DNA of 64,000 nucleotides from a virus (Duplodnaviria > Caudoviricetes). Below are positions 25,374 to 26,340 of the stretch, in pieces; within the stretch, counting starts at the first letter, position 1; every line of letters begins with the position of its first letter. The notes under the pieces were generated by a model. That model worked only from the letters and a program-made list of their open reading frames with translations, did not search any database and was not told where the DNA came from. Made by a program: the position numbers and the translations under genes. Location of the stretch: positions 1 through 64,000 of IMG/VR virus record IMGVR_UViG_3300024331_000007, one strand, 5' to 3'.

Positions 25374-25964
25374 TTAACAATTATACACAGCTAGTATTGC
25401 TTTTGCAACTTTATCAAGCTGTTTTAGCTTGATCTTAAATCCATCAGAATCAGTAGCTTCCAAGAAGGCAGCGTTGCTATGAACCTCAGCAAGTGCCGTA
25501 AAAAGAAGACTTGGCGCATATGGATGTTTGGCAAAGGCCAAAAGTTCTTCGCCTCTGACAGTGTGACACATCATATCCATTCCGATGAGTTCTCCGACGA
25601 TCCTTGATTCTGCGGAATCTTCGGAAACTTCGTTCCACACTTTCTTGCTAACCTCAGCATGATTTGGAAAATGTTGGCGTCCAGCTTCATCAACTGTGCG
25701 ACAGTACGGCTTTCCAATATCGTGATAAAGTTGATACACATTCAAAATGTTCAAAGGCAACAATCTTGATGTGAGAGTTTTGTTGTGTACCCACTTCGGC
25801 ATTCTCCAAATCTTTCTGTATGGAGTTTGATGAATGGCGTTTGGGTACAAATCGTTGAACCAATCAACAACACCTTCGCCGTGTTCAAGGACATTCATTC
25901 CCTTGAACTGTTCGCATTTCTTCATATCCGCAAGTATGCGGTCAGCATGTATGGACTTAATCAT
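25374..25964 (-). CDS. HD-domain phosphohydrolase
   Basis: YHDIGKPYC...HFPNHAEVS...DM..H. Confidence 0.75.
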   Translation of the reverse strand: MIKSIHADRILADMKKCEQFKGMNVLEHGEGVVDWFNDLYPNAIHQTPYRKIWRMPKWVHNKTLTSRLLPLNILNVYQLYHDIGKPYCRTVDEAGRQHFPNHAEVSKKVWNEVSEDSAESRIVGELIGMDMMCHTVRGEELLAFAKHPYAPSLLFTALAEVHSNAAFLEATDSDGFKIKLKQLDKVAKAILAVYNC

Positions 25965-26340
25965 ACAAACCTCCCTCAACTGTAACGGGAACTTTTTCAG
26001 TGTTTGGTTCGCGCCAAATGGCATAGTTTCTGAGCGCATTGCGCTGTTCGTCTGACAAGTTTGTAGTTGTTGCGACGGCGGAAAGGCCCATGTCCCAATC
26101 AGGTTCAAAGAAAGGGGAGTGCTCAATGTTGTTTGCGCGAAGCTTTACAATCACACGTTCCAATGCTTTCTTGTTTGGAACGCCGATAAGAACAATGCTA
26201 GGGATAGCGTTCTTATCAATGTGGGGATGGGATACCGCCATCTGATAGGTGGCGTGGTTGCTCTGCACGAGTTGCTGAGCGGCGGGAATGTCTTGTCTTA
26301 CAAAGACATAAAAGTAAGGATGTTCTTGGACCTAGTGCAT
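25957..26340 (-). CDS. Pth2-like peptidyl-tRNA hydrolase with in-frame TAG at codon 3
   Basis: RBS AAGGA, ATG CAC TAG GTC..., then YFYVFVRQDIP..QQLVQSNHA...IVLIGV...FFEPD...LSAVAT. Confidence 0.7.

What the first reader, a model, noticed from the sequence alone, without database searches (positions are those of the whole stretch)
25957..26340. Peptidyl-tRNA hydrolase-like gene gated by an amber codon at position 3 (ATG CAC TAG)
Seen: RBS AAGGA, then ATG CAC TAG GTC CAA GAA CAT CCT TAC TTT TAT GTC TTT GTA AGA CAA GAC, continuing in frame into a Pth2-like domain (YVFVRQD...QSNHA...EPD...LSAVAT). The ORF track starts only at a later GTG and loses the conserved first strand. Two CUA-anticodon tRNAs lie within about 1-1.6 kb downstream (24352, 24878). 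Established: lambda bar minigenes (AUG-x-stop) cause peptidyl-tRNA drop-off that Pth relieves. Inference: the phage's own suppressor tRNAs switch on full-length hydrolase by readthrough, and/or the Met-His minigene acts as a termination/drop-off sensor. This would be a self-contained stop-codon regulatory circuit in a non-recoded genome.
Basis: partly seen in the sequence, partly recalled or inferred. Interest (0 to 1): 0.9.

Follow-up and report, generated by a model that had tools for sequence, protein, structure and literature searches.

The report
Amber-gated phage tRNA-hydrolase gene cassette
A small tRNA-hydrolase-like gene of a 360-kb soil phage has the stop codon TAG as its third codon, and nearly every relative in dozens of large phages, including lab-grown ones, keeps that early TAG beside a phage tRNA that reads TAG, so the enzyme is probably made only when that tRNA overrides the stop.

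Summary
On the minus strand, AAGGA is followed by ATG CAC TAG (26340-26332) and then a 124-codon open frame with a Pth2 fold. Two well-formed CUA tRNAs lie 1.0 and 1.5 kb downstream on the same strand.

The TAG is not an error or decay. 87 of 92 homologous loci start ATG, 1-8 codons, TAG, purine. These include cultured phages ME3, Arash, GAP32, CBB, BF, RsoM2USA and XacN1. The stop is never TAA or TGA. Codons after the TAG vary synonymously, and most loci have no start codon there.

The genome otherwise uses the standard code. An HD-type partner gene overlaps the hydrolase stop. In other phages this partner is fused to the hydrolase or carries its own early TAG, at codon 47 in the GAP32 group. 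CUA tRNAs lie nearby in 35 of 45 gated loci and 0 of 7 ungated ones.

Best reading: programmed amber suppression makes a two-enzyme tRNA-end module depend on the phage's suppressor tRNA. The purpose of this dependence is inferred only. Two lineages have the gate but no detectable CUA tRNA.

I found no published description. This scan has reported the same cassette on other DNA many times.

The parts
26347..26351 (-). Shine-Dalgarno-like AAGGA, six bases before the ATG
   Evidence: Read directly from the sequence. The surrounding RNA shows no stable structure, z = +1.27.
26332..26340 (-). The gate: ATG CAC TAG, with start codon 26340-26338 and amber codon 26334-26332, followed by G
   Evidence: The ATG, 1-8 codons, TAG, purine pattern is kept in 87 of 92 homologous loci. 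TAG is invariant in 22 of 22 distinct sequences of one length class, while the flanking codons vary.
25957..26331 (-). Body of the Pth2-like gene (124 codons plus TAA), in frame with the ATG and TAG
   Evidence: The AF2 model has pLDDT 82.7. The top 14 PDB matches are all Pth2 family or unnamed structural-genomics proteins of the same fold: 1q7s, 2zv3, 3erj, 1xty, 1wn2, 1rlk and 2gax. AFDB clusters agree. Pfam PTH2 matches weakly in 3 of 36 relatives.
25374..25964 (-). HD-type partner gene (196 aa, phrog_14850). Its ATG overlaps the last codons of the Pth2-like gene (TATGATTAA), which implies translational coupling
   Evidence: It is fused to the Pth2-like domain in XacN1, RAS14 and Xoo-sp13, and separately amber-gated in other phages. 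The AF2 model has pLDDT 97.5. The best PDB matches are class II tRNA nucleotidyltransferase chains, followed by HD phosphohydrolases.
24878..24953 (-). tRNA with anticodon CUA: U1-A72, U73, encoded CCA
   Evidence: ARAGORN. Rfam tRNA score 62.1 bits.
24352..24428 (-). Second tRNA with anticodon CUA: G1-C72, A73, encoded CCA
   Evidence: ARAGORN. Rfam tRNA score 62.1 bits.

Best explanation
This is a programmed amber gate. Ribosomes start at the ATG at 26340 and meet UAG as the third codon. They make the full-length Pth2-like protein only when a phage CUA tRNA, rather than release factor 1, reads that codon. The translationally coupled HD-type enzyme downstream is made the same way.

The mRNA and the tRNAs lie on one strand of the same tRNA-rich region. 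In many relatives a single promoter appears to drive both, so expression would need message AND working suppressor tRNA. That is a feed-forward gate. The two enzymes most likely act on tRNA 3' ends: ester hydrolysis by the Pth2-like protein and phosphoester chemistry by the HD protein. Their dose would then follow the level of amber suppression in the infected cell.

Shown here: the conservation of the gate, coding constraint directly behind it, the standard code elsewhere in the genome, and the linkage to CUA tRNAs.
Inferred: that the tRNAs are expressed, charged and decode this codon; which residue is inserted; what the enzymes do; and why the dependence is useful.
For: 1. The gate is conserved. 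87 of 92 loci, falling in 23 of 24 clusters at 70% identity, plus a separate fusion clade, read ATG, 1-8 codons, TAG. This includes cultured standard-code phages ME3, Arash, GAP32, CBB, XbC2, Kaldavass, BF, RsoM2USA, XacN1, RAS14 and Xoo-sp13.
2. The stop is always TAG, never TAA or TGA, and the next base is always a purine. Among this genome's own TAG terminators 32 of 59 are followed by a purine, so the binomial p is 6e-7 over 24 lineages. From established knowledge, a 3' purine favours amber suppression in E. coli (Bossi 1983; Miller and Albertini 1983).
3. Codons directly after the TAG are under protein-level constraint. Arg uses six codons, and Phe, Tyr and Val vary synonymously. Gln codons nearby switch between CAG and CAA but never become TAG, and the TAG column never becomes CAG or CAA.
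4. Most loci have no ATG, GTG or TTG between the TAG and strand beta1. That strand is the core of the confident fold.
5. In one large clade a promoter matching 10 or 11 of 12 consensus positions ends 6-9 nt before the ATG, with no Shine-Dalgarno. The ATG is then the only entry point for ribosomes.
6. The HD partner carries its own TAG: at codons 3-4 in L074, L077, L085, L093, L102 and RsoM2USA, at codon 7 in L070, and at codon 47 inside the conserved domain in GAP32, CBB, BF and XbC2. An internal TAG cannot be explained by reinitiation.
7. In the XacN1 clade the two domains are fused in the opposite order, yet the TAG stays at codon 3-4 of the fusion.
8. Same-strand CUA tRNAs lie within 18-3700 nt in 35 of 45 gated loci with enough flank, against 0 of 7 ungated loci (Fisher p = 1.5e-4). 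By lineage the figures are 17 of 23 against 0 of 5 (p = 0.005).
9. XacN1 and RsoM2USA have no CUA tRNA near the gene, but their papers report CUA tRNAs elsewhere in the genome and could not name a target for them.
10. The genome is not recoded. Code 11 ORFs cover 89% of it, TAG ends 59 of 568 ORFs, and there is no excess of TAG-joined frames.
Against: Nothing here is experimental. Expression, charging and decoding by the tRNAs are all inferred.

Two gated lineages have no CUA tRNA that ARAGORN or Rfam can find. These are L007 in G003 (121.7 kb, CheckV estimate 100%) and L003 in G002 (89%). At least there, something else must read the TAG, or the contigs are incomplete.

The one ungated lineage nested among gated relatives (L011-L014) still has a CUA tRNA 93 kb away.

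A few loci have ATG or GTG right after the TAG or within four codons of it (L016, L023, L098, L105, XacN1). Independent initiation is possible in those.

This phage ends 59 of its own ORFs in TAG, so strong suppression should be costly.
Confidence: 0.68

Rival explanations
1. Two-codon minigene with reinitiation or a drop-off sensor. ATG-X-TAG is a real mini-ORF that terminates or sheds its dipeptidyl-tRNA. The hydrolase is then made by ribosomes that resume or restart just after the TAG, with no suppressor tRNA involved.
For: The TAG sits extremely early, at codon 3 in most lineages. A few loci have ATG or GTG immediately after it or within four codons: L016, L023, L098, L105 and XacN1. Two gated lineages lack a detectable CUA tRNA. 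From established knowledge, lambda bar minigenes cause peptidyl-tRNA drop-off that Pth relieves.
Against: The codon after the TAG is usually GTT, GTC, ATC, ATT, AAT, GAC or GGG, and most of these are not initiators. Reinitiation would tolerate any stop codon, yet TAA and TGA never occur in 53 clusters at 90% identity. The second codon is not conserved, so no particular peptidyl-tRNA is produced. The HD partner has a conserved TAG at codon 47 and another at codon 7. CUA tRNAs co-locate with gated genes but not with ungated ones.
Confidence: 0.1
2. A leaky stop that serves as an attenuator or release-factor-1 sensor. The UAG is read at low frequency by near-cognate host tRNAs. This keeps a potentially harmful tRNA hydrolase at trace level, or ties its level to RF1 activity. 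The neighbouring CUA tRNAs would then be linked for other reasons.
For: TAG is the only stop read by RF1 alone, which would explain why the stop is always TAG. The gate persists in L003 and L007, where no CUA tRNA was found. The genome has no RF-1-domain gene and no canonical Pth gene.
Against: The tight same-strand linkage between gate and CUA tRNA would be left unexplained. It is often 18-200 nt, with no terminator found between them in L019 and L020. So would the absence of CUA tRNAs near ungated relatives. Many phages carry 2-3 different CUA tRNAs in tandem right behind the cassette.
Confidence: 0.14
3. Genome-wide TAG reassignment (code 15-like). TAG would simply be a sense codon in this phage, and the early TAG would have no special meaning.
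For: The phage encodes CUA tRNAs. Gene callers translated some relatives with TAG=Q.
Against: Code 11 gives 89% coding coverage, and TAG terminates 59 of 568 ORFs with ordinary short extensions. There is no excess of TAG flanked by long open frames. Only 2 of 29 same-frame neighbouring ORF pairs are joined by TAG, and one of those lies over tRNA genes. The TAG column never exchanges with CAG or CAA. The cultured carriers are annotated under the standard code.
Confidence: 0.03
4. Sequencing error or a decaying pseudogene.
For: A single C-to-T change would turn CAG into TAG. The public gene call is truncated to 94 aa.
Against: The same TAG is present in 87 loci from many samples and in isolated phages. 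The source assembly has depth 22 with no variant at this position, and an independent run carries the TAG. The downstream frame is intact and under purifying selection.
Confidence: 0.01

Closest known systems
Stop-codon recoding in phages with phage-encoded suppressor tRNAs (TAG read as Gln, 'code 15'; crAss-like and Lak phages; bioRxiv 10.1101/2021.08.26.457843, read)
   Same: A phage CUA tRNA is proposed to override UAG so that phage genes with in-frame TAG are translated only once the tRNA is active. Recoding serves as a regulatory timer.
   Different: In those phages many genes, mainly late and lysis genes, carry many TAGs, TAG is largely given up as a terminator, and coding density collapses under code 11. 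Here the genome uses the standard code. TAG ends about 10% of its ORFs. The in-frame TAG is confined to one tRNA-enzyme cassette, at a fixed position near the start, and never exchanges with Gln codons.
prfB (release factor 2) autoregulation through an in-frame UGA at codon 26 (established knowledge)
   Same: A single early in-frame stop codon in a translation-factor gene makes its expression report on how that stop codon is being read in the cell.
   Different: prfB passes its stop by a +1 frameshift, and the product itself recognises the stop, which closes a proven feedback loop. Here the frame does not change, a tRNA is the presumed reader, and any feedback of the enzymes on suppression is unproven.
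Lambda bar minigenes (AUG-AUA-stop) and peptidyl-tRNA hydrolase
   Same: A start codon is followed by one sense codon and a stop, and the biology is connected to peptidyl-tRNA hydrolase.
   Different: bar minigenes are free-standing and toxic because they sequester one specific tRNA, and they use other stop codons. Here the second codon is free, the stop is always TAG, and a conserved protein continues in frame.
Synthetic suppressor-tRNA feed-forward gates (Nucleic Acids Res 2020, PMC7969014; listed, abstract only)
   Same: An amber codon placed in a gene, together with a co-regulated suppressor tRNA, gives AND logic and removes leaky expression.
   Different: That design is engineered. This would be a natural counterpart, kept across many phage lineages.
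Archaeal/eukaryotic peptidyl-tRNA hydrolase 2 (Pth2, Pfam PF01981; PDB 1q7s, 2zv3, 3erj, 1xty, 1wn2)
   Same: The fold is the same, with TM 0.64-0.74 normalised to the target. The VRxD...QxxHA...D...AxxT sequence pattern is shared.
   Different: Identity is only 8-17%. The window protein has no Pfam hit. The Gly/Lys-rich loop after the first strand of Pth2 appears to be missing (my own comparison from memory, not tested). Enzymatic activity is unknown.

Membership tests
Pth2 (PF01981) peptidyl-tRNA hydrolase | Pth2 alpha/beta fold | tested here: met
   The AF2 model has pLDDT 82.7. The 14 best PDB matches are all Pth2-family or Pth2-fold chains, E 4e-5 to 7e-4, TM 0.56-0.74 normalised to the target. 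The best AFDB cluster matches are mostly named peptidyl-tRNA hydrolase.
Pth2 (PF01981) peptidyl-tRNA hydrolase | Match to the Pfam model above its curated cut-off | tested here: not met
   P0001 has no PF01981 hit even at E <= 1. Only 3 of 36 relatives match, with best E 3.2e-5. This is a distant sister family, not a Pfam member.
Pth2 (PF01981) peptidyl-tRNA hydrolase | Catalytic residues and hydrolysis of peptidyl- or N-acyl-aminoacyl-tRNA | not testable with these tools
   Across the 15 close relatives of alignment A2, R15, D17, Q23, Q26, H29, E79, D81 and T91 are invariant; in the wider A1 set only E79 and T91 stay invariant and D81 is nearly so. Which of these are catalytic, and what the substrate is, needs an enzyme assay.
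Amber suppressor tRNA | Canonical cloverleaf with anticodon CUA, U33, a purine at position 37 and an acceptor end | tested here: met
   ARAGORN gives cloverleaf structures with a C-U-CUA-A-A loop and encoded CCA. Both score 62.1 bits against Rfam tRNA.
Amber suppressor tRNA | Is transcribed, aminoacylated and decodes UAG | not testable with these tools
   No RNA run holding this stretch was listed. The amino-acid identity could not be inferred: the nearest phage tRNAs are only about 70% alike, and related phages carry several acceptor/discriminator types.
TAG-recoded (code 15) phage | In-frame TAG in many genes, and better coding density when TAG is read as sense | tested here: not met
   code 11 coverage is 89%, TAG ends 59 of 568 ORFs, and there is no excess of TAG-joined frames. 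The only convincing gated ORF in the 360-kb genome is this one.
HD-domain phosphohydrolase (partner gene P0062) | The H...HD...D metal-binding motif and the HD fold | tested here: inconclusive
   Across 33 members H28, D82, H102, D130 and H134 are invariant and H81 nearly so, within the motif YHDxGKP. P0062 has no Pfam hit. One relative carries PF01966 in the precomputed list (P0174). Fold matches are weak, E 5e-3 or worse, first to class II tRNA nucleotidyltransferase chains 3wfo-3wfs and then to the HD enzymes YfbR, HDDC2 and OxsA.

The most novel reading that the evidence does not exclude
The cassette is a homeostat for stop-codon readthrough. The Pth2-like and HD enzymes would act on the suppressor tRNA itself, by deacylating it or disabling its 3' end, or on the products of its action. 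The early UAG would then close a negative-feedback loop that sets how strongly UAG is read through in the infected cell. This would be a tRNA-based analogue of prfB autoregulation. It would also explain how standard-code phages that end many of their own genes in TAG can afford to carry amber suppressors.
Probability: 0.15. Interest if true: 0.9.

Novelty: new variant of a known kind. Interest (0 to 1): 0.8.

Why it matters
Many standard-code jumbo phages carry CUA 'suppressor' tRNAs whose purpose is unknown. The XacN1 authors looked for targets and found none, and the RsoM2USA authors named none. This cassette gives those tRNAs a first concrete and conserved target.

It also points to a natural translational AND gate built from a stop codon and a tRNA. 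That may be a stepping stone between ordinary coding and full TAG reassignment.

There is a practical annotation consequence. In the public records inspected here the gene was left unannotated (BF, RsoM2USA), truncated (ME3, GAP32, CBB, XbC2, Kaldavass and the 94-aa metagenome calls) or split into fragments (Arash). Some metagenomic gene calls silently translate it with TAG=Q.

Several carriers are cultured, among them GAP32, CBB, ME3, Arash, BF, RsoM2USA and XacN1. The idea can therefore be tested directly with reporters, tRNA deletions and mass spectrometry.

Tried and rejected
- Megablast of the 2-kb region against GenBank phages found no match.
- Pfam gave no hit for the Pth2-like protein or for the HD partner and three neighbouring ORFs. 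A sequence search of the PDB gave only chance-level hits.
- I first took homologues beginning 'MHQ...' as evidence that relatives have Gln where this phage has TAG. I rejected this: those proteins were called with TAG=Q, so they are gated too. The inserted residue therefore remains unknown.
- I tried to assign the two CUA tRNAs to an amino-acid class by similarity to the phage's other 50 tRNAs. The best matches were about 70% (Lys/Arg types), which is not informative.
- I looked for a missed CUA tRNA in the gated record G003 with Rfam. It listed 33 tRNAs against ARAGORN's 36, and no CUA anticodon turned up in that record.
I repeated it with A2.
- Complex prediction on the HD protein with the Pth2-like protein returned no verdict.
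- The look-up of sequencing runs listed no RNA run holding this stretch. Only contigs could be laid.
- Folding the mRNA around the gate gave nothing beyond shuffled controls.
- Other ATG-X-TAG candidates in this genome (14637, 61133, 155328, 246785, 318954) lie inside or antisense to other ORFs, or have a normal start close by. I dismissed them.

Full report
**1. What is in the window**

All features are on the minus strand. AAGGA (26351-26347) lies six bases before ATG CAC TAG (26340-26332). The frame then stays open for 124 codons to TAA at 25959-25957.

The first canonical start after the TAG is GTG at 26268, codon 25. The public gene call begins at Met34, giving 94 aa.

ARAGORN finds 44 tRNA genes in the window. 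Two have anticodon CUA, at 24878-24953 and 24352-24428 on the same strand, 1.0 and 1.5 kb beyond the gene's end. Each scores 62.1 bits against Rfam tRNA.

The window is the first 64 kb of a single 359,890-bp virus record with 41% G+C and 52 ARAGORN tRNA calls.

**2. What the protein is**

Read through the TAG, the product (P0001, 127 aa) has no Pfam hit and only weak PHROG hits.

An AlphaFold model built on 36 relatives is confident, with pLDDT 82.7. Its 14 best PDB matches are all Pth2-family or Pth2-fold structures: Bit1 1q7s, MJ0051 2zv3, AF2095 3erj, Sulfolobus Pth2 1xty, and the unnamed structural-genomics proteins 1wn2, 1rlk and 2gax. AFDB clusters agree.

Strand beta1 (residues 9-15) and helix 1 (residues 20-37) lie upstream of the GTG and Met34 starts, apart from the end of the helix. 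A protein started at either would lack the core of the fold.

This is a distant sister family of Pth2, not a Pfam member. Its activity is untested.

**3. The TAG is conserved, not an error**

I collected 91 homologous loci:
- Logan and ENA contigs
- IMG/VR
- JGI metagenomes
- GenBank phages

Counting the window, 87 of 92 loci read ATG, 1-8 codons, TAG, purine. The TAG is codon 3 in most. The exceptions are one lineage (L011-L014, which starts ATG ACC CAT ATC) and one 28%-identical outlier (L127).

The loci fall into 53 clusters at 90% identity and 24 at 70%. Cultured phages that use the standard code carry the gate:

| Phage | Start of the gene |
|---|---|
| Acinetobacter ME3 | ATG ACT TAG |
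| Salmonella Arash | ATG CTG TAG |
| Cronobacter GAP32, Pectobacterium CBB | ATG GCA CAA TAG |
| Serratia BF | ATG ACG CAC TAG |
| Ralstonia RsoM2USA | ATG TTG TAG |
| XacN1 | ATG AAG TAG |
| RAS14 | ATG AAG TAG |
| Xoo-sp13 | ATG AAG AAG TAG |

Among 22 distinct sequences of one length class, the TAG column is invariant while the codon before it takes nine forms. The codons behind it vary synonymously: Arg uses six codons, and Phe, Tyr and Val vary too. Nearby Gln codons switch between CAG and CAA but never become TAG.

Database proteins that begin 'MHQ...' were called with TAG=Q and are gated as well.

The source assembly has depth 22 at the site. A contig from an independent soil run carries the same TAG.

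**4. The genome is not recoded**

Simple code 11 ORFs cover 89% of the genome. TAG ends 59 of 568 of them, with ordinary short downstream extensions. TAG is not enriched between long open frames or between same-frame neighbours.

A genome-wide scan for ATG, 1-12 codons, TAG followed by a long frame found no other convincing case.

The genome has no RF-1-domain gene and no canonical Pth gene. The Pth2-like gene is present in a single copy.

**5. The gate covers a two-enzyme unit**

The next gene (25374-25964, P0062, phrog_14850) starts inside the last codons of the Pth2-like gene, in the sequence TATGATTAA. This implies translational coupling.

P0062 has an invariant HD-type motif (YHDxGKP plus further His and Asp residues) and folds with pLDDT 97.5. 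Its best, weak PDB matches are class II tRNA nucleotidyltransferase chains, followed by HD phosphohydrolases.

Its arrangement differs between phages:
- In XacN1, RAS14 and Xoo-sp13 it is fused upstream of the Pth2-like domain, and the TAG remains at codon 3-4 of the fusion. Fusion proteins also occur in the protein database (P0166 and P0170).
- Where it is a separate gene it carries its own gate: ATG TTA TAG, ATG ATG TAG or ATG CTG TAG in five metagenomic lineages, ATG AAA TCG TAG in RsoM2USA, and TAG at codon 7 in L070.
- In GAP32, CBB, BF and XbC2 it has a TAG at codon 47, inside the conserved domain. There the GenBank records split the gene into fragments.

An internal conserved TAG calls for true readthrough.

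**6. Linkage to CUA tRNAs**

One to three CUA tRNAs lie on the same strand, 18-3700 nt downstream, in 35 of 45 gated loci with at least 2.5 kb of flank. They are often the very next gene.

None lies near the ungated relatives: L011-L013, L127, and three distant ungated members L128-L130. Fisher's test gives p = 1.5e-4 by locus and p = 0.005 by lineage. The loci are related to one another, so these figures are indicative only.

XacN1 and RsoM2USA lack a nearby CUA tRNA. Their papers report CUA tRNAs elsewhere in the genome and name no target.

In one clade a near-consensus promoter ends 6-9 nt before the ATG, with no Shine-Dalgarno sequence and, in L019 and L020, no terminator found before the tRNA. 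This suggests a near-leaderless mRNA co-transcribed with its tRNA.

The base after the TAG is always a purine (p = 6e-7 against this genome's own TAG terminators). From established E. coli work, that context favours suppression.

**7. Counter-evidence**

Two gated lineages have no detectable CUA tRNA: L007 in G003 (121.7 kb, CheckV 100%) and L003 in G002 (89%). In both, the tRNA directly behind the gene has an odd anticodon loop, GCAGUCU. The relative L105 has that tRNA and also a CUA tRNA 506 nt downstream.

The ungated L013 record still has a CUA tRNA 93 kb from the gene. A few loci have ATG or GTG just after the TAG.

Nothing shows that the tRNAs are expressed or charged. The inserted residue is unknown, and related phages carry several acceptor/discriminator types of CUA tRNA.

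**8. Interpretation**

The best-supported mechanism is programmed amber suppression. It makes the Pth2-like and HD enzymes depend on the phage's suppressor tRNA, which amounts to a feed-forward AND gate.

Why this is useful is inferred only. One possibility is that it matches tRNA-end clean-up capacity to the amount of readthrough. Another is feedback on the suppressor itself.

The rivals each fit the data less well:
- Minigene with reinitiation: contradicted by the TAG-only rule, the non-initiator codons after the TAG, and the codon-47 TAG.
- Leaky stop or RF1 sensor: leaves the tRNA linkage unexplained.
- Global recoding: tested here and not met.
- Error or pseudogene: refuted by the comparative data.

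**9. Novelty**

Five full-text searches and six papers consulted by term look-up gave no description of an amber-gated Pth2-like or HD gene.

The wider family is large: 1,045 representatives of 50%-identity clusters at E <= 1e-10. Many of them are N-terminally truncated gene calls.

This scan has reported the same cassette on other DNA many times, including the HD partner and cellular (acidobacterial and actinobacterial) versions. I retested the phage claims here and they hold. I did not test the cellular ones.

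Noticed in passing
window 25202-25279 and 25113-25198 (minus strand): ARAGORN's 'tRNA-Stop(tta)' at 25202-25279 lacks U33 and Rfam does not find it. Rfam instead reports a tRNA at 25113-25198 (45 bits) that ARAGORN does not list. The supposed ochre suppressor is doubtful.
   Followed up: partly
L003:4326-4401, L007:4344-4419, L105 (13 nt after the gene): In the lineages with no CUA tRNA, or with one only further away, the tRNA directly behind the gated gene has A1-U72, A73 and an anticodon loop GCAGUCU. 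It has no U33 and a pyrimidine at position 37. ARAGORN calls it Thr(agt), and Rfam scores the L007 copy at 52 bits. What it decodes is unclear.
   Followed up: partly
CUA tRNAs of L004, L005, L006, L010, L076, L077 and others: Many phages carry 2-3 different CUA tRNAs in tandem. There are recurrent acceptor/discriminator types: A1-U72 with G73, G1-C72 with A73, and G1-C72 with U73. This suggests several suppressors, possibly inserting different residues.
   Followed up: partly
L026:3336-3902 (GAP32), L063 (CBB), L027 (BF), L064 (XbC2): GenBank splits one HD-type gene into two or three small ORFs (for example GAP32_398, 398A and 399). The cause is an in-frame TAG at codon 47 (ACT GGA TAG GGC). 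In BF and RsoM2USA the Pth2-like gene is not annotated at all.
   Followed up: yes
L004:5790 and L084:4790; L005:5969, L086:4811 and L089:2844: A third small ORF starts ATG ACA TAG and is conserved between two clades (S/D-VKEAAE-x-Y-x-W-x-HQQ...). It lies about 0.5 kb upstream of the CUA tRNA array and may be a further gated gene.
   Followed up: no
L003-L006, L015 (1-2.5 kb upstream of the gated gene): Permuted (two-piece) tmRNA genes lie just upstream of the cassette in several lineages.
   Followed up: no
L004, L005, L077, L080, L084 and others, about 10-30 nt before the ATG: In one clade the Shine-Dalgarno sequence sits in the loop of a perfect 6-bp hairpin, TTGAGC-TAGGAG-GCTCAA, directly ahead of the gate.
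   Followed up: no
L016:3923-3952, L020:2190-2218, L019:3915-3943: Near-consensus sigma-70 promoters end 6-9 nt before the gate's ATG, and no Shine-Dalgarno sequence is present. The gated mRNA is probably leaderless or nearly so in this clade.
   Followed up: partly
window 26587-26661: A tRNA-Arg(acg) lies about 250 nt upstream of the gated gene, both here and in the close relatives L001 and L002. The cassette is embedded in a tRNA array.
   Followed up: no
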